Below, one piece after another: positions 2-45,349 of a stretch of 45,349 nucleotides of DNA. Positions within the stretch are counted from its first letter, which is position 1, and every line of letters begins with the position of its first letter. This DNA is from Escherichia coli. Its GTDB lineage: Bacteria; Pseudomonadota; Gammaproteobacteria; Enterobacterales; Enterobacteriaceae. Where the stretch lies: NCBI RefSeq assembly GCF_003334405.1, contig NZ_QOWM01000023.1; one strand, given 5' to 3'. The position numbers and the translations under genes are program-made. Under the pieces are notes generated by a model, which was given only the letters and a program-made list of their open reading frames with translations, was not told where the DNA came from and did no database searches.

Positions 2-77
2 TGGTGGGTCGTGCAGGATTCGAACCTGCGACCAATTGATTAAAAGTCAACTGCTCTACCAACTGAGCTAACGACCC
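2..77 (-). tRNA. lysT: tRNA-Lys (anticodon UUU)
   Basis: Reverse complement is a 76-nt tRNA ending in CCA, with anticodon loop CUUUUAA and TTCGAATCC in the T-arm, matching E. coli tRNA-Lys. It sits just downstream of cpoB, as the first tRNA of the lysT-valT-lysW cluster does in K-12. Confidence 0.93.
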
Positions 78-241: not shown

Positions 242-1033
242 TTACATCGCGTTCAGACGTTTTTGTGCCTGTTTAGCGCCATCAGTACCAGGGTATTTAC
301 TGATAACCTGCTGGTATACGGCTTTCGCTTTTGCGGTGTCACCTTTGTCCTGCATGATGACGCCGACTTTAAACATCGCATCTGCAGCCTTTGGTGACTT
401 CGGATAGTTTTTCACTACCGAAGCAAAATAGTACGCCGCATCATCTTTTTTACCCTTGTTGTAGTTTAACTGACCCAGCCAATAATTGGCGTTTGGCAGG
501 TAAGTTGAATCAGGGTAATTTTTGATGAAATTCTGAAATGCCACCATTGCGTCATCCTGGCGGGATTTATCCTGCACCAGCGCAATAGCTGCATTGTAAT
601 CCGTGTTTGCATTACCGCTTTTCACCGGCGCGCCAGCATTCGCAGTACCAGCATCAGCTGTCGGCGTCGTTGATGCCGCCGCACCGCTTTGATCGCCGCT
701 GGTTGATTGCGCCGCTGCACCACCGCTGCTGAGGCTGTCGATCTGCAACAGGATCTGCTTTTGCCGCTCCACGACCTGATTCAGTTGATACTGATTTTCC
801 TGAATCTGACCACGCAGGGAATCAATATCGGATTGATTATCAGAAAGTTGTTGCTGGAGTTGGGTTAAAAGCTGGCTGTGAGCATTAGAAATACGCTCAA
901 GTTGAGTGACGCGGTCTTCGACCGAGCCTGAGCCGACACTACTGATTGGTGCCTGAGCAAAAGCGGCCCAGGGGGCCGCTATACCAACCAGTAACGACAG
1001 ACTCAATAGTTGATGTCTGAAGTTACTGCTCAT
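242..1033 (-). CDS. cpoB: Cell division coordinator CpoB (YbgF), periplasmic TPR protein
   Basis: 263-aa ORF starting MSSNFRHQLLSLSLLVGIAAPWAAFA (signal peptide), with a Q/L-rich coiled coil and C-terminal TPR-like repeats. Last gene of the tol-pal cluster. Confidence 0.95.
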   Translation of the reverse strand: MSSNFRHQLLSLSLLVGIAAPWAAFAQAPISSVGSGSVEDRVTQLERISNAHSQLLTQLQQQLSDNQSDIDSLRGQIQENQYQLNQVVERQKQILLQIDSLSSGGAAAQSTSGDQSGAAASTTPTADAGTANAGAPVKSGNANTDYNAAIALVQDKSRQDDAMVAFQNFIKNYPDSTYLPNANYWLGQLNYNKGKKDDAAYYFASVVKNYPKSPKAADAMFKVGVIMQDKGDTAKAKAVYQQVISKYPGTDGAKQAQKRLNAM

Positions 1034-1042
1034 GCAATTCTC

Positions 1043-1588
<546 letters not shown>

Positions 1589-5983: not shown

Positions 5984-6013
5984 TTATGGGCCTGGAGCGG
6001 CCCATAATTTTTT
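5984..6013. terminator. Bidirectional intrinsic-terminator-like hairpin between ybgE and ybgC
   Basis: TTATGGGCCTGGAGCGGCCCATAA palindrome flanked by an A-run on one side and a T-run on the other. It is placed to terminate the cydAB-cydX-ybgE transcript on the minus strand. Confidence 0.45.
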
Positions 6014-6028
6014 AAAGAGAATTCTGAT

Positions 6029-6322
6029 TTAAAAGAAGAAGAAAATCAGCCCGACAATGAGAACAATATCGGCAAGCAATGGGCAAAAAATCCCTTGCCA
6101 AAGAACCTTCTGCGGACGAAAGCCCACGCCGTGAATCACACCAGCACAGACGGCCCACATCAGCAATAAACCATGCCAGATTTCCAGTTCACTGGTCTTC
6201 GCGGCAAAACGAGATGGGTCCCAAAACATACATCCTGCTAACAGAAGCGCCATCACGAAGGAAAGCGCCCGCAGGGGGCGCTTGTCCATTACCGCATACA
6301 AAGTCGCGATAATCTTACTCAT
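6029..6322 (-). CDS. ybgE: Small inner-membrane protein YbgE (cyd operon)
   Basis: 97 aa, hydrophobic, MSKIIATLYAVMDKRPLRALSFVMALLLAGCMFW. Confidence 0.9.
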   Translation of the reverse strand: MSKIIATLYAVMDKRPLRALSFVMALLLAGCMFWDPSRFAAKTSELEIWHGLLLMWAVCAGVIHGVGFRPQKVLWQGIFCPLLADIVLIVGLIFFFF

Positions 6323-6435
6323 CAGATGTCTTCTTGACCGGCTTTGCCTGATTCGACGTGTTCAAGCGCCAGCGCGGTGATTACCCCAAACGAACAGGCA
6401 AGAAGCGTTCCCAGAATCCATGCGAAATACCACAT
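6322..6435 (-). CDS. cydX: Cytochrome bd-I oxidase accessory subunit CydX (37 aa)
   Basis: Hand translation of the minus strand gives MWYFAWILGTLLACSFGVITALALEHVESGKAGQEDI followed by TGA. Absent from the ORF track because it is under 60 aa. Its stop overlaps the ybgE start, and it starts 11 bp after the cydB stop. Confidence 0.9.
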   Translation of the reverse strand: MWYFAWILGTLLACSFGVITALALEHVESGKAGQEDI

Positions 6436-6449
6436 TTTTAGCTCCTTAC

Positions 6450-7589
6450 TTAGTACAGAGAGTGGGTGTTACGTTCAATATCTTCTTTGGTGATACGACC
6501 GAACATTTTCCAGTAACACCAGGCGGTGTAGAGCAGAATGATCGGTACCAGAACCACCGCAACCCAGGTCATGACGTTAAGCGTCAGCTGGCTGGAAGTT
6601 GCATCCCACATTGTCAGACTTGCGTTCATCATGGTGCTGGACGGCATCACAAACGGGAACATTGCGATACCGGCTGTCAGGATGATGCAGGCCAGCGTCA
6701 GGGAGGAGAACACAAACGCCCACGCGGCTTTATCCATACGTGCAGTCAGGATGGTCAGCAGCGGCAGAACCACACCCAGTGCCGGAATAGCCCACAGAAT
6801 TGGCGTGTTGTTGAAGTTAACCAGCCATGCGCCAGCTTCACGAACCACTTCTTTATTCAGTGGGTTAGAGGCTGCGTAATGGTCCATTGTCGATTTCACG
6901 ACATAACCATCGATACCGTACATCACCCATACGCCAGCCAGTGCGAAACAGACCAGTGTCACCAGCGCAGCCACCTGAGCCGTTGCACGGGTACGCAGGT
7001 GCAGTTCGCCCACGGTACGCATTTGCAGATAGGTTGCGCCCTGAGTAATGATCATCCCTACGCTCACCACGCCTGCCAGCAGGCCGAACGGGTTAAGCAA
7101 CTGGAAGAAGTTACCGGTGTAGTACAGACGCAGATATTCATCAACGTTGAACGGTACGCCCTGCAACAGGTTACCGAACGCTACACCAATTACCAGCGGC
7201 GGAACGAAGCTACCAATGAAGATGCCCCAGTCCCACATGTTACGCCAGCGGGTTTCTTCAATCTTGGAGCGGTAGTCAAAACCGACCGGACGGAAGAACA
7301 AAGACGCCAGCACGAGGATCATCGCCACATAGAAGCCGGAGAACGCAGCGGCATAGACCATCGGCCAGGCAGCAAAGAGTGCGCCGCCCGCGGTGATCAG
7401 CCAAACCTGGTTACCGTCCCAGTGTGGTGCAATGGAGTTAATCATAATTCGACGCTCGGTGTCGTTACGACCGAGGAAACGGGTGAGCATGCCCACCCCC
7501 ATGTCGAAACCGTCAGTGACTGCAAAACCAATCAGCAGAACGCCAACCAGCAGCCACCAGATAAAACGCAATACTTCATAATCGATCAT
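6450..7589 (-). CDS. cydB: Cytochrome bd-I ubiquinol oxidase subunit II
   Basis: 379 aa polytopic membrane protein, MIDYEVLRFIWWLLVGVLLIGFAVTDGFDMGVGML. Confidence 0.96.
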   Translation of the reverse strand: MIDYEVLRFIWWLLVGVLLIGFAVTDGFDMGVGMLTRFLGRNDTERRIMINSIAPHWDGNQVWLITAGGALFAAWPMVYAAAFSGFYVAMILVLASLFFRPVGFDYRSKIEETRWRNMWDWGIFIGSFVPPLVIGVAFGNLLQGVPFNVDEYLRLYYTGNFFQLLNPFGLLAGVVSVGMIITQGATYLQMRTVGELHLRTRATAQVAALVTLVCFALAGVWVMYGIDGYVVKSTMDHYAASNPLNKEVVREAGAWLVNFNNTPILWAIPALGVVLPLLTILTARMDKAAWAFVFSSLTLACIILTAGIAMFPFVMPSSTMMNASLTMWDATSSQLTLNVMTWVAVVLVPIILLYTAWCYWKMFGRITKEDIERNTHSLY

Positions 7590-7604: not shown

Positions 7605-9173
7605 TTAGCGTGCCGGCTGAGTAGTCGTGGAAGACTGCTCAAAGTGATAGCGACCGGTTTTCAGGCTGCTTGGGCCGAGGCGTGCAAACTTGAACATTAA
7701 GAACAATTCTGCCACCAGGAACAGGGTATACAGGCCGCAAATCAGCACCATTGAGAAGATGAGATCGCCTGCGGTCAGTGACGAGTTCGCCACAGCTGTC
7801 GGCAGCACTTCACCGATAGCCCACGGTTGGCGGCCATATTCAGCCACGAACCAGCCCGCTTCTACAGCAATCCACGGCAGCGGAATACCGTACAGCGCGG
7901 CGCGCAGAAGCCATTTTTTCTCGCCAATGCGGTTGCGGATGACACTCCAGAAAGAGAGCGCGATGATTGCCAGAAGCAGGAAGCCACACGCCACCATGAT
8001 ACGGAACGCAAAGTACAGCGGCGCTACACGCGGGATGGAGTCTTTGGTTGCCTGTTGAATCTGCGCTTCAGTCGCATCAGCCACGTTTGGCGTATAGCGT
8101 TTCAGCAGCAGACCGTAACCGAGGTCTTTCTTCATGCTATTGAACTGGTCACGAACCGCCTGGTCGGTAGAACCAGAACGCAGTTGTTCGAGCAGAGAGT
8201 ACGCCTTCATCCCGTTACGAATGCGTTCTTCATGCTGCACCATCAGCTCTTTCAGGCCGATAACCGGGGTATCCACGGAACGCGTTGCAATGATGCCCAG
8301 TGCGTAAGGGATCTGAATCGCAAATTTGTTCGTCTCCTCTTCCTGATCAGGAATGCCGAACAGAGTAAAGGCAGCAGGCGCAGGTTGCGTTTCCCACTCG
8401 GCTTCAATAGCAGCCAGTTTGGTTTTCTGCACGTCGCCCATTTCGTAGCCGGATTCATCACCCAGAACAATAACAGACAGAACAGCAGCCATACCGAAGC
8501 TGGCAGCGATAGCAAAGGAGCGTTTAGCGAAGGCGAAGTCACGACCTTTCAGCATATACCATGCGCTGATACCGAGGATGAACATCGCGCCAGTCACATA
8601 ACCAGACGCTACAGTGTGAACGAATTTCACCTGAGCAACCGGGTTAAGCACCAGCTCGGAGAAGCTCACCATCTCCATACGCATAGTTTCAAAGTTGAAA
8701 TCGGACGCGATTGGGTTTTGCATCCAGCCGTTCGCAACCAGAATCCACAGTGCGGACAGGTTTGAACCGAGCGCCACCAGCCAGGTGACACACATATGCT
8801 GAACTTTACCCAGACGATCCCAACCGAAGAAGAACAGACCTACAAAGGTGGATTCGAGGAAGAAGGCCATCAGACCTTCGATTGCCAGCGGCGCACCGAA
8901 GATATCCCCTACATAGTGGGAATAGTAAGACCAGTTAGTCCCGAACTGGAACTCCATGGTCAGACCGGTAGCCACACCCAGAGCGAAGTTGATACCAAAC
9001 AACTTGCCCCAGAACTTGGTCATATCTTTATAAATCTGTTTGCCGGAGAGGACGTAGACCGTTTCCATAATGGCCAGCAGGAACGCCATACCGAGCGTCA
9101 GTGGCACAAAAAGGAAGTGGTACATCGCGGTCAAGGCAAACTGTAAGCGCGACAGTTCGACTATATCTAACAT
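7605..9173 (-). CDS. cydA: Cytochrome bd-I ubiquinol oxidase subunit I
   Basis: 522 aa from [31 protein letters not shown], including the Q-loop. The ORF-track start at 9176 is one Met upstream. Confidence 0.96.
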
Positions 9174-15478: not shown

Positions 15479-15484
15479 GCACAA

Positions 15485-15581
15485 AAAAGGCCATCATACG
15501 ATGGCCAACCATGTCGAAACCGACAGCCCTTCGCCATTCCTGTAGAGGGAAGCGGCGAGGGCTATTTCTTATTACAGATAT
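15485..15581 (-). ncRNA. sdhX: SdhX (RybD) sRNA from the sucD 3' UTR
   Basis: The sequence directly 3' of the sucD stop ends in the intrinsic terminator GGCCAUCGUAUGAUGGCC followed by UUUUUU (15483-15510, minus strand). Position and terminator fit the known 3'-UTR-derived sRNA of the sdh-suc transcript. The 5' boundary is set by processing and not determinable here. Confidence 0.6.
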
Positions 15582-17699: not shown

Positions 17700-17960
17700 C
17701 CCGTAGGCCTGATAAGACACGTTAAACGTCACATCAGGCATCGCTTGTCGGATGCGGCGCTTGCGCCTTATCCGACCTACATTGGTGGTCCCCGTAGGCC
17801 TGATAAGACACGTTAACCGTCACATCAGGCATCGCTTGTCGGATGCGGCGCTAGCGCCTTATCCGACCTACATTGGTGGTCCCGTAGGCCTGATAAGACG
17901 CGTCAGCGTCGCATCAGGCTTCAATTGCCGGAGAAGGCGATAATGCCTTATCCGGTCTAC
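17700..17960. repeat. Tandem array of three ~90-bp BIME/REP units in the sucB-sucC intergenic region
   Basis: Units at 17700-17790 and 17791-17880 are near-identical (two substitutions and one indel by eye). A third, more diverged unit lies at 17881-17960. Each unit holds two REP-type palindromes (GCCTGATAAGAC...GTCACATCAGGC and GTCGGATGCGGCGC..GCGCCTTATCCGAC). Confidence 0.85.
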
Positions 17961-22195: not shown

Positions 22196-22316
22196 GCCTG
22201 ATGCGCTGCGCTTATCAGGCCTACGGGTAATGACTTGTAGGCCGGATAAGGCGTTCACGCCGCATCCGGCACTGGTTGCCTGATGCGACGCTTGCGCGTC
22301 TTATCAGGCCTACGGT
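22196..22316. repeat. REP (BIME) palindromic units in the sdhB-sucA intergenic region
   Basis: Three REP-type palindromes: GCCTGATGCGCTGCGCTTATCAGGCCTAC, GTAGGCCGGATAAGGCGTTCACGCCGCATCCGGC, GCCTGATGCGACGCTTGCGCGTCTTATCAGGCCTAC. They abut the sdhB stop codon. Confidence 0.85.
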
Positions 22317-25545: not shown

Positions 25546-26253
25546 GAATAACGCCCACATGCTGTTCTTATTATTCCCTGGGGACTACGGGCACAGAGGT
25601 TAACTTTCTGTTACCTGGAGACGTCGGGATTTCCTTCCTCCGGTCTGCTTGCGGGTCAGACAGCGTCCTTTCTATAACTGCGCGTCATGCAAAACACTGC
25701 TTCCAGATGCGAAAACGACACGTTACAACGCTGGGTGGCTCGGGATTGCAGGGTGTTCCGGAGACCTGGCGGCAGTATAGGCTGTTCACAAAATCATTAC
25801 AATTAACCTACATATAGTTTGTCGGGTTTTATCCTGAACAGTGATCCAGGTCACGATAACAACATTTATTTAATTTTTAATCATCTAATTTGACAATCAT
25901 TCAACAAAGTTGTTACAAACATTACCAGGAAAAGCATATAATGCGTAAAAGTTATGAAGTCGGTATTTCACCTAAGATTAACTTATGTAACAGTGTGGAA
26001 GTATTGACCAATTCATTCGGGACAGTTATTAGTGGTAGACAAGTTTAATAATTCGGATTGCTAAGTACTTGATTCGCCATTTATTCGTCATCAATGGATC
26101 CTTTACCTGCAAGCGCCCAGAGCTCTGTACCCAGGTTTTCCCCTCTTTCACAGAGCGGCGAGCCAAATAAAAAACGGGTAAAGCCAGGTTGATGTGCGAA
26201 GGCAAATTTAAGTTCCGGCAGTCTTACGCAATAAGGCGCTAAGGAGACCTTAA
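25546..26253. promoter_or_regulatory. Divergent gltA / sdhCDAB promoter region
   Basis: 708-bp non-coding, AT-rich region between divergent gltA and sdhC. Known from K-12 to carry the promoters and ArcA/CRP/Fur-type control of both operons; individual sites not resolved here. Confidence 0.6.
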
Positions 26254-39662: not shown

Positions 39663-39770
39663 GCCTGATGCGACGCTTGACGCGTCTTATCAGGCCTACG
39701 TATTTCCTGCAATTTATTGAATTTGCACAAATTTGTAGGCTGGATAAGGCGTTCACGCCGCATCCGGCAT
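39663..39770. repeat. REP (BIME) palindromic units between dtpD and phr
   Basis: GCCTGATGCGACGCTTGACGCGTCTTATCAGGCCTAC and the inverted GTAGGCTGGATAAGGCGTTCACGCCGCATCCGGC, separated by an AT-rich spacer. Confidence 0.85.
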
Positions 39771-39796: not shown

Positions 39797-41215
39797 TTAT
39801 TTCCCCTTCCGCGCCGCCTCATACGCTGCCAACGTTTGTACTCTCGCTTCTTTGTGCTCGACTATCGGTTGCGGATAATCCAGCGTCACACCTGCTTTCT
39901 GCGCCCACTTCCACGGCTCATGCACCACTTTCCCTGGCACATCGCGCAGTTCCGGTAGCCACTGGCGGATAAACTCGCCCTCATGATCAAATTTCTCGCC
40001 CTGGGTTGTCGGGTTGAAAATACGAAAATACGGCGCTGCATCGGTTCCGGTTGAAGCGGCCCACTGCCAGCCACCGTTATTGGCTGCCAAATCACCATCA
40101 ATCAGCTGCGACATGAAATATCGCTCGCCTTCGCGCCAGTCGATCAATAAATCTTTCACCAGAAAACTGGCTGTAATCATCCGTAGCCTGTTATGCATCC
40201 AGCCAGTGCTGTTAAGCTGACGCATAGCGGCATCAACAATCGGGTATCCCGTTTTGCCTTCCTGCCAGGCCTGTAAATGTGCGGGATTGCTCTGCCACTG
40301 TACACGATCCGTCCAGGCAATAAATGGACGATGTTTACACAACGAGGGGTGATACGTTATCAGGTGACGGTAAAACTCGCGCCAGATCAGCTCATTAAGC
40401 CAGACACTACCGGCCCCACCGTCCAGCGCCTGCGGCTGTTCAGCCAACAAGCGATGCAAGCACTGGCGAGGCGATAACCCGCCCGTTGCCAGGCTGGCCG
40501 ACAAACGGCTGGTGCCTTCCACTGCCGGAAAATCTCGTTGTTGCTCATATTCTCCGGCACCGTTCTGGCAAAACTGGCGTAATTGCGCAATCGCCGCTTT
40601 TTCTTCCACCGGAAAATGCGCAGTATCGAAAGACTGACGAGGATAATTCAGCGTAATGGATGGCGAGGGCTCTATCGATCCGCTACTACGAACTTTTGGC
40701 GCAGCGACGCACTCCGGCATCCCTTCCCGCAGCCGTTTCAGCCAGGCATTCTTAAAAGGCGTAAAGACTTTGTACATCTCGTGATTACCGGTCATCACCG
40801 CGCCAGGCGGCAGGATCACGCTGTCATCAAATCCTTCACACACCACGTTACGCAGCGCTCTTTCAACTTCCACATCCCGCGCCCGCTCATTCACTTCATA
40901 CTGATAGTTATAAAACAGGTGGGTAACGCTGTTTTCCGCGCACACCTGTTTAACTATTTCGACACTGGCGACAAAGTCATCCACTTCACGGAACAATAAA
41001 GGAATACCTTTTTCCGCAAGCGCTATTTGTAGCCCATTCAGTTGAGCATTGATAAGTTCAGCCTGACGCGGCGACATGTTATGCGTCGCCCACTGGCGTG
41101 GTGTAGCGATATACAACGCCAGCACGCGTGCAGACGAATTGCGGCAGGCGGCAGCCAGTGCGAGATTATCGTGCAGACGTAAATCCTGGCGAAACCAGAC
41201 CAGATGGGTAGTCAT
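39797..41215 (-). CDS. phr: Deoxyribodipyrimidine photolyase
   Basis: 472 aa, MTTHLVWFRQDLRLHDNLALAAACRNSSARVLALYIATPRQW, FAD-binding C-terminal domain. Confidence 0.97.
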   Translation of the reverse strand: MTTHLVWFRQDLRLHDNLALAAACRNSSARVLALYIATPRQWATHNMSPRQAELINAQLNGLQIALAEKGIPLLFREVDDFVASVEIVKQVCAENSVTHLFYNYQYEVNERARDVEVERALRNVVCEGFDDSVILPPGAVMTGNHEMYKVFTPFKNAWLKRLREGMPECVAAPKVRSSGSIEPSPSITLNYPRQSFDTAHFPVEEKAAIAQLRQFCQNGAGEYEQQRDFPAVEGTSRLSASLATGGLSPRQCLHRLLAEQPQALDGGAGSVWLNELIWREFYRHLITYHPSLCKHRPFIAWTDRVQWQSNPAHLQAWQEGKTGYPIVDAAMRQLNSTGWMHNRLRMITASFLVKDLLIDWREGERYFMSQLIDGDLAANNGGWQWAASTGTDAAPYFRIFNPTTQGEKFDHEGEFIRQWLPELRDVPGKVVHEPWKWAQKAGVTLDYPQPIVEHKEARVQTLAAYEAARKGK

Positions 41216-41721
41216 AAAACTCCTGAATGGCGCAAGTTAATCACACGCGGCCAAAGTTCGAAATAACGCTGCCCTGAAAGCCAGGCGTCAGGATAAAGCG
41301 CCATATAGTGTTTGATACGCATCAGCGGCGCAAGAAGTGGTTGCTCGCCACGGCGATAACTGTCGATAAGCGCAGCCAGCTGCTGGCGTTCTGTGGAATC
41401 AATATGCGGGCGAAAATAACCCTGAACGTGCATCAAAACATTGGTGTGATCGCGCGGGTTGGCGGGGTGAGAAAGCAAAACAACTACGCGTTGGCGGTAC
41501 TGGTTGTAATAGTCATCCAGATTTTGCCACTGGTGAATATCAGCCACGAACGGGCCAAGTTTGCGGTACTCCGGCTGAGAATGCGCCAGAAAGACGAGTT
41601 TATAGCGGCTGTGATAATCGAGAAGCGCCCCGCGCGTTAAGCCATGTTCTTTCAGTCGATGTAACTCATGAAGGGCAAAGATACGGATTAGGGTGCTGTC
41701 ATCAAATCGTTGTAGATTCAT
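41212..41721 (-). CDS. ybgA: DUF1722-family protein YbgA
   Basis: 169 aa, MNLQRFDDSTLIRIFALHELHRLKEHGLTRGALLDYHSRYK. Its stop overlaps the phr start (ATGA). Confidence 0.9.
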   Translation of the reverse strand: MNLQRFDDSTLIRIFALHELHRLKEHGLTRGALLDYHSRYKLVFLAHSQPEYRKLGPFVADIHQWQNLDDYYNQYRQRVVVLLSHPANPRDHTNVLMHVQGYFRPHIDSTERQQLAALIDSYRRGEQPLLAPLMRIKHYMALYPDAWLSGQRYFELWPRVINLRHSGVL

Positions 41722-41868
41722 TACTGCTCCTGAGCGGTTTACAGGAGTAAGTGTAGACGTTGAGAAATGATATTTGTGAAGTTAATCCTGTTGTAGCAGG
41801 ACAAATTTACGAAAGCCTGCTCCCCGCAAGGACTGACGTCAGGTAGTTTCTAACCATAGCTGCCCTTT

Positions 41869-42630
41869 CTATTCAAACGTGAAATCAATAAGCTCATCAG
41901 GGACATCGCAAACAATATGAAGACGGGTTTCTTCTCTGCCGTGACTCTTTTCACTAATTGCGTAACTGTCATGCTTGGGATTATTTAATTCTTTCAGCGG
42001 AAATTTTTCCTCGAAGGCTTTATTTAGCCGCCCCTGGTTTCCTTTTACAGCGAATAAATAATCACCTCCCTGTTTTTGTATCTTCTCTGCAATATCTTTC
42101 TGGCAACCCATCGCATCAGTTGTGATGATTTTTCCTTTAATATCCAGCATGTTAAGAAGTTCTGGGATAGCTGTAATCTCATTAGATTTCTCATCCGTCT
42201 TGATCTGTCCGATGACCAGACTGTGCATTGTTGAGAACGCACTAATGACATGAATCGCTCCCCTGCGGCGACTCTTGTCATAAGAGTGCCGGAGCGTTTT
42301 TCCATCAATTGCAATGACGTCTTTATCATCTGAAGAATGGCAGTCACGCATCCAGTTAATAAAGCACTCGTGAAATTTTGCAGGACTGATACAGGATACA
42401 ACTCTGGCAATGGTATCGTGAACAGGAATACCATTTTCAAAATCACCATATTGCTTCAAAAAATCGGGATGTGTTTCCCCAAAATCCTCTATATCTTCCC
42501 AGCCTTCTGCACCAGAAATAACGGCACAAATAGTCAACAGTAGAATATCCGATAACTTATGTTCCATTTTCCAGGCTTGTCTGTAATCGGGGATAATAGA
42601 AATATGTCCCATCAATTTTTTAAGTTCCAT
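41869..42630 (-). mobile_element. ybfD: H-repeat-associated ISAs1-family transposase, N-terminal 253-aa fragment
   Basis: 253-aa [24 protein letters not shown]...[24 protein letters not shown]. Paralogous to the adjacent copy and ends where a full-length ISAs1 transposase would continue, so C-terminally truncated. Confidence 0.85.
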
Positions 42631-42869
42631 TTTGTTCTCCTTAATTATGTAAGGAGTATTTGATCATGTGTAAGCAATAAAAAACAGCTTTAGGTAATAA
42701 GGAATATCTCAATTTTTAAACATAAAATGCGAATTGTTTAGTACAAAAAGTGAACTTCTGATGATCTTTCCCTGTGTTTAACGCAGCCTTCTTTCTTTTC
42801 CTCTTCACCCTTAATGTCTTTGCAATCTCTTAATAAATTCAGTGCCATCTTCTTTATTCCAGATATTAT

Positions 42870-43860
42870 TTAGGCTGCGTTTCCTCTTCTTATCCGGCTG
42901 GCATCTTCATTCATTTTTACATCTAACACCCAATGAAGACTGTGCTCGATCAGCCAGTGCGCTCTGATAGCATGTGCAAATTCTTTAGCATCCATATCCT
43001 TTGATGAAATATAATATCGGATGCTTACACCTTCTGCTGATTTATCTTCTTTCTTCTGCCTGAATGACAATGCTACACAAAGCTTTTTTAATCCCTTCCA
43101 TTCGAATTCAAAATCACAAAAGTTCAGGCGTTACGTTACTGACAATATGCAAACGTGTTTCTTTTCTTCCATGACTTATCTCCTGCGTACTAAACGAATC
43201 GCCTTTATAATTAGAAAACACATTTACAGGAAATTTTTCCTCGAATGCATGATGTAATTTCCCCTGATTGCCTTTTACTGCCAGAAGATAATCTGCTTTT
43301 TTATCTTTGATCTTCGAAGCGATATCTTTCTGACAGCCCATAGCATCAATGGTTATCAAATTTTTCTTTAAATACAGTAGGTTAAGCAACTCTGGAATGG
43401 CTGTAATCTCATTACTTTTGGCTTCCGTTTTCACCTGCCCCAGTACAACACCATTTTCGTTCGAGAATGCACTCACCATATGGATTGCTCCTTTTCTTTT
43501 TCCCTTATCAAAGGAGCCTCTTATGGTCTTTCCATCTATTGCTATAATTTCACCATCAGTGATTTCATGGCACTCCTGCATCCATTCAATAAACATCTTT
43601 TCAAAGGCCAAACTGTCAATGTTACTCACAACGCGTGCAATGGTGTCATCGACCGGAATGCCATTATCAAAATCACCATATTTCTTTAGCCATTCAAGTC
43701 TTTCATGTCCAAAATCTTCAATTTCCTGCCACTCATCGGCACCTGCAATTACTGCACATACGGTGAGAAACAAAATAGCAGATAATTTATGTTTAACCTT
43801 TCCTTGTTGTCGTATATCAGGGGTCACTGAAATATAATCAAGCAAACTTTGAATACTCAC
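42870..43860 (-). pseudogene. ybfL: Frameshifted, C-terminally truncated ISAs1-family (H-repeat) transposase
   Basis: The N-terminal part (43114-43860, 248 aa, MSIQSLLDYISVTPDIRQQGK...) stops at 43114. The continuation (...[65 protein letters not shown]) lies in another frame at 42870-43070 and ends short of the family's usual C-terminus. Confidence 0.8.
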
Positions 43861-44041
43861 CTGGCGTCCTTTTTTATCTTTTTAGTTATTCCAAAGGTTA
43901 AATTTTGATCACCTGTAGGCGTTAAAGCAAAGATGAAAATCGTGATTTACATCACAATTTTCATGATCTTGCCCTGCCCCGTCCCTTGCTCTCATGTCTT
44001 TCTGTATGTATTTTATATTTTTCTCTTTCTGGTGTTGTTCA

Positions 44042-44500
44042 TTATGACCATTTACCAATCCAGTCAAAAACTTCATTTTTCAAATTGTTATCATAATAAT
44101 CAACATCATAATAGTCTCCATAATTAATTATTTTATAACTAGCCTTCTTGTTTTTATCACTAAAATACACCCGTTGTTTTGTAGCGCAGAACTCCATATT
44201 CTCCAGTTTACTAATGTTTTTTAATCGCACGCTATAAAGAATATCATTGAAAAAATTAAGATTTATATCAACCACTCCACAGTGCGTCCTGTAATTATTA
44301 ACCATTATACTTATAAAATGACCATTCCCTCTACTAATTTTTTGGTCATTAATTATTTTATAAATAATATTTTTTTCAGAAAGATATATCTCAACGCTCT
44401 TTGGTGTTTTATGTCCATAAAATACGATGTCAGAATTTGAATTGTTATCAAACCCAAGGTAAACAACAAATAAACAAAGGGTAATTAAAAAAAATGACAA
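44042..44500 (-). CDS. Candidate Rhs-tip immunity protein (AT-rich ORF with N-terminal hydrophobic segment)
   Basis: 152-codon ORF beginning 8 bp after the Rhs-tip stop, with an apparent TTG start (the ORF-track 'M'). Strongly AT-rich with Asn/Ile/Lys/Tyr-rich composition and MSFFLITLCLFVVYLGF at the N-terminus. May correspond to K-12 ybfC; start codon uncertain. Confidence 0.6.
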   Translation of the reverse strand: MSFFLITLCLFVVYLGFDNNSNSDIVFYGHKTPKSVEIYLSEKNIIYKIINDQKISRGNGHFISIMVNNYRTHCGVVDINLNFFNDILYSVRLKNISKLENMEFCATKQRVYFSDKNKKASYKIINYGDYYDVDYYDNNLKNEVFDWIGKWS

Positions 44501-44508
44501 GTTTGCCT

Positions 44509-45349
44509 CTAATAATTTGAAGCATCTGAACTCCCTTGCTTTGCTTTTATTGGATTATCTGCTTTTATACCATCTAACCCGAAGAGTTGCCCAGTGTTAT
44601 ATTTTTCAATACATGCATCGCTACATTTGGCAGAAAAATCGCCACAAGCAATACCGACAGTGTTATTTTTAAGATCCATGATTCTTTCTTTAGCTGGCTG
44701 ACCTTGTCTATCCCCTGCCGCCTCATGATTTTTACCTATCACGTCAGCTATTGTTGATCCAAATGTCTTAGTCATTCGACACATCAAGTAACAATGTCTC
44801 ATTGCATCGGCGGCCCCATTATGAGCTCCGCCAACAATAGCATCCATATCATAACCGAACTGGTAAGCACTGTTAGTAATGCTGTTTGCAGCAATCAATC
44901 CAGGTACACCAGATACGGCATAAATTAGTCCACCTGATGTCATATTCTCAATCGCATCTAACCCCATTGGGTCTATCACTTGTATGGGATTCAACGGATA
45001 CTGATACATATTCCATCCACCTCTCAACCCAATCGGGTCCGGGGTGATATACCGCCCCTGCAACGGATCGTAGTGCCGGTGACGGTTATAGTACAGCCCC
45101 GACTCCTCATCATGCTGCTGCCCTGGCAGACGGTACGGCTGGTGCAGGTGATGCGGGTTCTCCTCATTAAGCTGGTTGCCCCATTCATCATACTCCCCGC
45201 GCCACGCCGTATTGCCGTCTTCGCTGATGAGCGCCAGCGGCAGGCCCCGGTGGTCGCAGTGGTAAAAATGAACTTTTCGCGCCGGTGTGTATTCCGGCTC
45301 CACCTGTCTGGCCAGTTGCTCCACCGTCAGCCCGCACTGCGCAAGCCAC
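44509..45349 (-). CDS. Rhs-family protein C-terminal region (partial; 5' end beyond the window): end of Rhs core plus variable toxin-like tip
   Basis: Reading frame is open to the window edge (...[37 protein letters not shown]...). It contains the core-terminal motif [27 protein letters not shown] (PxxxxDPxGL), then about 149 aa of unrelated AT-rich sequence to the stop at 44509. The ORF-track 'M' at 45324 is an internal GTG. May be K-12 ybfO. Confidence 0.8.

What the first reader, a model, noticed from the sequence alone, without database searches (positions are those of the whole stretch)
6322..6435. 37-aa CydX missed by the ORF track, with stop overlapping the ybgE start
Seen: hand translation of the minus strand between cydB and ybgE yields MWYFAWILGTLLACSFGVITALALEHVESGKAGQEDI, a single hydrophobic helix, ending in a TGA that overlaps the ybgE start codon (ATGA). 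Established: CydX is a small subunit needed for cytochrome bd-I activity. It shows the window can hide functional ORFs below the 60-aa cutoff.
Basis: partly seen in the sequence, partly recalled or inferred. Interest (0 to 1): 0.3.

Follow-up and report, generated by a model that had tools for sequence, protein, structure and literature searches.

The report
Known E. coli cydX small gene
The 37-codon reading frame is the well-known E. coli gene cydX, a tiny membrane subunit of the cytochrome bd-I respiratory oxidase; it was skipped only because the ORF list ignored frames shorter than 60 codons, so the finding is correct but ordinary.

Summary
Confirmed and already known. Window 6322..6435 (minus strand) encodes MWYFAWILGTLLACSFGVITALALEHVESGKAGQEDI with no internal stop. 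An AAGGAG ribosome-binding site lies 6 nt upstream, and the frame sits 14 nt after the cydB stop. The peptide is 37/37 identical to chain X of the solved E. coli cytochrome bd-I structure (PDB 6RKO). It scores 70.7 bits against NCBIfam TIGR02106 'CydX' (cut-off 31.6) and matches Pfam PF08173. At this position cydX is nucleotide-identical to K-12 b4515, and every record listed or fetched from the 5,426 complete E. coli genomes, all of which hold the region, annotates it. The four divergent E. coli alleles fetched differ only by synonymous third-position changes. More distant homologues (47-63% identity) keep the cydA-cydB-cydX-ybgE order and the published YxxWxxGx15E/D motif. One detail needs correcting. 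The stop/start overlap with ybgE is one base (TGATG), not a four-base ATGA overlap. 'Missed by the ORF track' is simply the 60-aa cut-off; ybgU (35 aa) and ybgV (10 aa) elsewhere in the window fall under the same cut-off. Off-window by-product: a conserved family of about 197-aa proteins in Methylococcales and other Gammaproteobacteria genomes assembled from metagenomes fuses a CydX helix to a degenerate GGDEF domain, directly after cydB. Nothing in the searched literature described this fusion.

The parts
6322..6435 (-). cydX (ybgT) coding sequence, 37 aa plus TGA stop
   Evidence: Translation. Identical to PDB 6RKO chain X. TIGR02106 70.7 bits. PF08173. Nucleotide-identical to K-12 b4515.
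6442..6447 (-). Shine-Dalgarno sequence AAGGAG, 6 nt upstream of the cydX ATG (6435..6433)
   Evidence: Read directly from the sequence. GGAG or GGAGG also lies shortly upstream of the start, within the 25 nt shown, in homologue loci L008-L011.
6450..7589 (-). cydB, cytochrome bd-I subunit II (379 aa); its stop lies 14 nt before the cydX start
   Evidence: NF011579 867.9 bits against a cut-off of 718. RefSeq annotation.
7605..9173 (-). cydA, cytochrome bd-I subunit I (start as annotated in K-12; the open frame extends one ATG codon further, to 9176)
   Evidence: ORF. K-12 coordinates mapped through the colinear alignment.
6029..6322 (-). ybgE (97 aa, function unknown); its ATG 6322..6320 shares one base with the cydX stop TGA 6324..6322
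   Evidence: NF007881 185.2 bits against a cut-off of 116. Sequence. Annotation.
5984..6007 (-). terminator-like G+C-rich hairpin followed by a T run, 21 nt after the ybgE stop; probable end of the cydABX-ybgE transcript
   Evidence: Consensus scan. This is a pattern match only; function is inferred.

Best explanation
This is the E. coli gene cydX (formerly ybgT, b4515). It is the third gene of the cydA-cydB-cydX-ybgE operon and is translated from its own AAGGAG ribosome-binding site 14 nt after cydB ends. Its 37-aa product is a single transmembrane helix. In the solved bd-I structures this helix packs against transmembrane helices of CydA near haem b558. It acts as a structural or assembly subunit, and without it the oxidase loses activity: deletion gives slow growth, mixed colonies, reductant sensitivity and reduced oxidase activity. 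Shown here: the ORF, its exact identity to the crystallised/cryo-EM subunit, family membership, operon position, and conservation. Taken from the literature: physical association with CydAB and the requirement for activity. Inferred: that the 1-nt stop/start overlap couples ybgE translation to cydX.
For: The ORF is intact with the stated translation. It is 37/37 identical to chain X of PDB 6RKO/6RX4 and 7 more entries, E 8.9e-22. NCBIfam equivalog TIGR02106 'cytochrome bd-I oxidase subunit CydX' gives 70.7 bits against a cut-off of 31.6. Pfam PF08173 gives E 1.9e-14. The region is present in 5,426/5,426 complete E. coli genomes, and every listed or fetched record annotates cydX there. It is nucleotide-identical to K-12 b4515. 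The four divergent E. coli alleles fetched differ only at the third positions of codons 20 and 25 and encode the same WP_000270282.1. 87 cluster representatives among 1.84 billion proteins match at E<=1e-3, and 77 of them carry YxxWxxGx15[E/D]. This is the family motif defined in PMC4325964, and the window peptide has it. Homologues at 47% and 63% identity lie in cydA-cydB-cydX-ybgE order, one of them followed by ybgC-tolQ-tolR-tolA as in the window. Function comes from PMC4325964, PMC6005532 and PMC8951039.
Against: Nothing found here contradicts it. No expression data for this particular strain were available. Single alanine substitutions in CydX are tolerated (PMC6005532), so the sequence constraint is distributed across residues, but this does not bear on identity.
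Confidence: 0.99

Rival explanations
1. It is a chance open reading frame in a non-coding cydB-ybgE spacer and is not translated.
For: ORFs of this size are frequent by chance: 36 ORFs of at least 20 aa lie in the surrounding 2 kb, several of them overlapping this one.
Against: It is identical to a subunit seen in solved bd-I structures and scores above the cut-off in a curated family. It has a canonical SD at the right spacing. The E. coli alleles fetched vary only synonymously. The frame, motif and position are conserved in homologues down to 47% identity.
Confidence: 0.003
2. It is the paralogous small subunit of cytochrome bd-II (AppX/CbdX) rather than CydX.
For: It shows weak N-terminal similarity to AppX: PDB 7OSE chain C at E 0.015 and NF011333 CbdX at 21.7 bits.
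Against: The CbdX score of 21.7 bits is far below its cut-off of 57. The neighbours are cydA/cydB (bd-I equivalogs), not appCB. The sequence is identical to bd-I subunit X.
Confidence: 0.002
3. The gene is present but is an inactive or divergent allele in this strain.
For: The window is not K-12 (99.87% identity overall), so strain-specific changes were conceivable.
Against: The cydX nucleotide sequence, SD and junctions are identical to K-12, and cydB and ybgE pass their full-length equivalog models.
Confidence: 0.005

Closest known systems
E. coli K-12 CydX (YbgT, b4515; PDB 6RKO/6RX4 chain X)
   Same: It is identical in protein (37/37) and nucleotide sequence, with the same position after cydB and the same 1-nt overlap with ybgE.
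   Different: Nothing differs. Only the host strain does: the window is 99.87% identical to K-12 overall.
AppX / CbdX, small subunit of E. coli cytochrome bd-II (PDB 7OSE, 7OY2)
   Same: It is a paralogous single-helix subunit with the same MWY..W..G N-terminus. According to PMC8951039 it binds AppC in nearly the same way that CydX binds CydA.
   Different: Only about 23 N-terminal residues align, and the score is below the family cut-off (21.7 against 57 bits). It is encoded in the appCBX operon, not here.
CydS of Geobacillus thermodenitrificans bd oxidase (PDB 5DOQ)
   Same: It is a small single-helix third subunit occupying an equivalent site on CydA (PMC8951039).
   Different: No detectable sequence match was found in the PDB search at E<=1. 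It is tilted relative to CydX and belongs to a different clade (PMC8951039).
CydH / CydY (YnhF), fourth subunit of E. coli bd-I
   Same: It is another sub-40-aa single-helix subunit of the same enzyme (PMC8951039).
   Different: The sequence is unrelated and the gene lies elsewhere on the chromosome, not in this window. It binds a different cleft (CydA TM1/TM9) and blocks an O2 access site (PMC8951039).

Membership tests
CydX (NCBIfam TIGR02106 / Pfam PF08173 YbgT_YccB) | Score above the curated whole-protein cut-off of the equivalog model | tested here: met
   TIGR02106 gives 70.7 bits against a cut-off of 31.6, E 9.1e-20. PF08173 gives 53.8 bits, E 1.9e-14.
CydX (NCBIfam TIGR02106 / Pfam PF08173 YbgT_YccB) | Small protein (about 30-50 aa) made of one hydrophobic transmembrane helix with a polar C-terminal tail | tested here: met
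   It has 37 aa. Mean hydropathy is +1.80 for residues 1-24 and -1.21 for residues 25-37. It is identical to the single-helix chain X of 6RKO.
CydX (NCBIfam TIGR02106 / Pfam PF08173 YbgT_YccB) | Sequence motif YxxWxxGx15E/D (Y3, W6, G9, E/D25), reported to span 97% of homologues (PMC4325964) | tested here: met
   The regex matches residues 3-25. The same motif occurs in 77 of 87 independent cluster representatives.
CydX (NCBIfam TIGR02106 / Pfam PF08173 YbgT_YccB) | Encoded immediately downstream of cydB in a cydAB operon | tested here: met
   The start is 14 nt after the cydB stop, and cydA and cydB are identified by equivalog models and annotation. The order is the same in homologue loci L009-L011.
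CydX (NCBIfam TIGR02106 / Pfam PF08173 YbgT_YccB) | Co-occurrence with the long-Q-loop form of CydA (PMC4325964) | not tested
   Q-loop length was not measured here. The window's cydA region is nearly identical to K-12, and K-12 bd-I is the reference long-Q-loop enzyme (own knowledge).
CydX (NCBIfam TIGR02106 / Pfam PF08173 YbgT_YccB) | Physical subunit of the CydAB complex, required for oxidase activity | not testable with these tools
   This is established for the identical protein. It is chain X in solved bd-I structures, and deletion phenotypes and the activity requirement are reported in PMC4325964, PMC6005532 and PMC8951039.
CbdX / AppX (NCBIfam NF011333, bd-II small subunit) | Score above the curated cut-off and location in the appCB operon | tested here: not met
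   It scores 21.7 bits against a cut-off of 57, and its neighbours are the bd-I genes cydA and cydB.

The most novel reading that the evidence does not exclude
cydX itself offers nothing new. The most novel reading still open concerns its neighbour. The cydX stop and the ybgE start overlap or abut in E. coli (TGATG) and in a 63%-identical homologue (TAATG). In a 47%-identical homologue the called genes overlap by 8 nt, although that start rests on an automatic gene call. If this reflects obligatory translational coupling, YbgE (function unknown, no hit among solved-structure sequences) would be made in fixed proportion to CydX. It might then act on bd-I assembly or on CydX insertion. Separately, natural CydX-GGDEF fusions in Methylococcales-type genomes suggest that the cytoplasmic tail of CydX can carry a regulatory domain.
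Probability: 0.25. Interest if true: 0.35.

Novelty: already known. Interest (0 to 1): 0.04.

Why it matters
As a discovery it does not matter. cydX has been annotated in E. coli for years, its product is visible in cryo-EM structures of cytochrome bd-I, and its requirement for oxidase activity is published. Its value here is methodological. It is a clean positive control showing that a 60-aa ORF cut-off hides real genes. This window holds at least three (cydX 37 aa, ybgU 35 aa, ybgV 10 aa). It also shows that a reader working from raw sequence can recover such a gene correctly.

Tried and rejected
(2) The primary paper on CydX function that I recalled as PMC3754557 is not held. Function is therefore cited from PMC4325964, PMC6005532 and PMC8951039. 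(3) A literature search for 'ybgT' plus 'ribosome profiling' returned one paper, on a small-protein annotation tool, which I did not read. No ribosome-profiling evidence could be cited from the library. (4) YbgE has no relative among solved-structure sequences at E<=1, so its relationship to bd-I could not be assessed structurally. (5) The chance-ORF, AppX-paralogue and inactive-allele readings were considered and rejected (see the rival explanations). (6) Overlapping alternative frames (6362..6433 minus, 23 aa; 6344..6493 plus, 49 aa; 6358..6441 plus, 27 aa; 6282..6380 plus, 32 aa) were not pursued. The region's coding content is fully explained by cydX, and the E. coli changes seen are silent in the cydX frame. 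(7) The longer 'CydX' hits such as P0005 (126 aa) read as CydX joined to YbgE sequence through a frameshift. Others carry N-terminal extensions from miscalled starts. I treated these as assembly or gene-calling artefacts, not new architectures. The GGDEF fusions are different, because they recur on many independent contigs.

Full report
**Observation.** On the minus strand, ATG at 6435..6433 opens a 37-codon frame that ends at TGA 6324..6322. The cydB stop (TAA 6452..6450) lies 14 nt upstream. Within that spacer AAGGAG (6447..6442) sits 6 nt before the ATG, a textbook ribosome-binding site. The ybgE start is ATG 6322..6320, so the two genes share one base (5'-TGATG-3'). The ATGA string at 6322..6319 is the ybgE ATG plus the next base, and its TGA is out of frame with cydX. 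RefSeq annotation shows the same 1-nt sharing. A 37-codon ORF is not remarkable by itself, since 36 ORFs of at least 20 aa lie in the surrounding 2 kb. The case therefore rests on what the ORF matches.

**Identity.** The peptide is 37/37 identical to 'Cytochrome bd-I ubiquinol oxidase subunit X', chain X of PDB 6RKO and eight further entries (E 8.9e-22). It scores 70.7 bits against the NCBIfam equivalog TIGR02106, 'cytochrome bd-I oxidase subunit CydX', whose cut-off is 31.6. It scores only 21.7 bits against the bd-II paralogue model CbdX, whose cut-off is 57. Pfam gives PF08173 YbgT_YccB at E 1.9e-14. The flanking ORFs pass the full-length equivalog models for CydB (867.9 bits) and YbgE (185.2 bits).

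**Genomic setting.** The window is an E. coli chromosome segment. It is the reverse complement of K-12 MG1655 from roughly 738 to 780.6 kb, at 99.87% identity. On the minus strand the order is cydA, cydB, cydX, ybgE, a terminator-like hairpin at 6007..5984, then ybgC, tolQRA, tolB, pal and cpoB. cydX and ybgE are nucleotide-identical to K-12 b4515 and b0735.

**Conservation within E. coli.** The region is present in 5,426 of 5,426 complete E. coli genomes, and cydX is annotated under the match in every listed or fetched record. The four divergent alleles I fetched differ inside the ORF only at the third positions of codons 20 and 25. All four encode the same protein, WP_000270282.1, and keep the SD; three keep the TGATGA junction exactly and one (L005) changes a base in the second ybgE codon, leaving the overlap intact. 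Two variable sites give little statistical power on their own, but both changes are silent in this frame.

**Conservation beyond E. coli.** An exhaustive HMMER scan of 1.84 billion cluster representatives found 87 relatives at E<=1e-3. Of these, 77 carry the motif YxxWxxGx15[E/D]. Allen et al. report that this motif spans 97% of CydX homologues (PMC4325964), and the window peptide has it at residues 3-25.

I looked up the contigs that encode three divergent homologues.
- The 47%-identical P0086 lies in cydA-cydB-cydX-ybgE-ybgC-tolQ-tolR-tolA order, as in the window.
- The 63%-identical P0015 lies in cydA-cydB-cydX-ybgE order with the same kind of 1-nt stop/start overlap, TAATG.
- The 55%-identical P0065 sits on a 1.1-kb contig between two genes without a Pfam record.
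- All three have GGAG or GGAGG shortly upstream of the ATG, within the 25 nt shown.
- Against the two 37-codon homologues, amino-acid identity is concentrated in residues 1-26: 19/26 and 15/26, against 3/11 and 1/11 in the tail.

That distribution agrees with the published finding that the N-terminal part is the functionally important one and the C-terminal residues are dispensable (PMC4325964, PMC6005532).

**Mechanism.** This part comes from the literature and was not tested here. [quoted passage not shown] No single alanine substitution abolishes function, but replacing residues 2-11, or combining Y3/W6/G9 mutations, does (PMC6005532). In the solved structures the helix lies alongside CydA and contacts TM helices 1, 4, 5, 6 and 7 near haem b558. 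Its role is considered mainly structural: it supports stable assembly and hence activity. Hoeser et al. [quoted passage not shown] The 1-nt overlap with ybgE suggests translational coupling, which is my inference. A cassette inserted between cydX and ybgE gives no bd-I phenotype (PMC6005532), and YbgE has no hit among the sequences of solved structures.

**Verdict on the finding.** The only error is the description of the overlap. The gene is already known in every respect, and it was 'missed' only because of the 60-aa threshold. Two other K-12-annotated small CDS lie in the window with identical sequence, ybgU (35 aa, 25941..26048 +) and ybgV (10 aa, 26032..26064 +).

**By-product outside the window.** Several CydX relatives are about 197-212 aa long. 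P0087 has PF08173 at residues 1-27 and a GGDEF domain (PF00990, E 1.6e-15) at residues 36-179. A homologue search found 290 clusters at E<=1e-5, and 119 of the 120 listed carry both Pfam domains. On eight contigs, some of them Mb-scale, the gene sits 9-15 nt after cydB, in the position of cydX. No called gene downstream on these contigs has a YbgE (PF09600) hit. Across 118 members the CydX part is highly conserved. The GGDEF signature is degenerate, mostly G[E/D][E/D]DF, and no canonical GG[D/E]EF appears among the 25 commonest variants listed. The few names available are 'cytochrome bd-I oxidase subunit CydX' from Methylococcales and Gammaproteobacteria genomes assembled from metagenomes. Neither Allen et al. 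2014 nor a full-text search for CydX plus GGDEF turned up a description of this architecture. It is a lead, not part of the finding, and I have not tested what the domain does.

Noticed in passing
L012:1180-1773, L013:724-1317, L014:6001-6594, L015:1391-1984, L016:6001-6618, L017:6001-6618, L018:6001-6588, L019:6001-6588 (metagenome and MAG contigs, not the window): A conserved family of about 197-205-aa proteins joins a CydX transmembrane helix (PF08173) to a C-terminal GGDEF domain (PF00990). The GGDEF signature is degenerate (mostly G[E/D][E/D]DF). The gene lies directly after cydB, where cydX normally sits, and no gene with a YbgE hit follows. There are 290 clusters at E<=1e-5. The few named members come from Methylococcales and Gammaproteobacteria MAGs and are labelled simply 'CydX'. 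No description was found in the searched literature.
   Followed up: partly
window 25941..26048 (+) and 26032..26064 (+): Two more K-12-annotated CDS below the 60-aa cut-off are present with identical sequence in the gltA-sdhC intergenic region: ybgU (35 aa) and ybgV (10 aa, GTG start). They overlap each other by 17 nt.
   Followed up: partly
window 15481..15581 (-): The small RNA SdhX (3' UTR of sucD) is nucleotide-identical to K-12 b4764, yet no Rfam family reported it at gathering threshold.
   Followed up: no
window 42750..45349 (junction region 41000..44500): Past ybgA and an ISAs1/H-repeat transposase (41869..42630, minus strand), the window leaves the K-12 RhsC arrangement. It continues with DNA at or near 100% identity to a locus that other E. 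coli genomes, K-12 derivatives among them, annotate as ydcC / yncO / ydcD / RHS core (the RhsE locus, from my own knowledge). This junction is found in one piece at >=80% coverage in only 3 of 5,426 complete E. coli genomes, with best identity 98.4%. This suggests a rare Rhs/H-repeat recombination variant, and a source strain that is not in that collection.
   Followed up: partly
window 17706..17868 (-) and 22240..22310 (+): Three REP-derived naRNA4 (CssrE) matches were found. The sucB-sucC intergenic REP array is about 90 nt shorter than in K-12: the BLAST segments overlap at window 17780..17875, against 186 nt in K-12.
   Followed up: no
window 1004..1142 (-), 5..77 (-), 39692..39734 (-): Rfam matches above the gathering score: the CpoB/ybgF intercistronic RNA thermometer (142 bits), a tRNA (79.2 bits) at the position of lysT in the K-12 map, and the ES036/CssrF sRNA (75 bits).
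   Followed up: no
E. coli genome collection (not the window): The cydB-cydX-ybgE segment matches at two places located on records labelled as plasmids, and some genomes hold two copies. I did not examine which records these are.
   Followed up: no
P0005, P0006, P0011, P0014 and other hits: Many metagenome 'proteins' of 55-126 aa begin with a CydX sequence and run on into YbgE-like or out-of-frame sequence. Others carry spurious N-terminal extensions. These look like frameshifts or miscalled starts at the tight cydX/ybgE junction, and they show how gene callers mishandle this small gene.
   Followed up: partly
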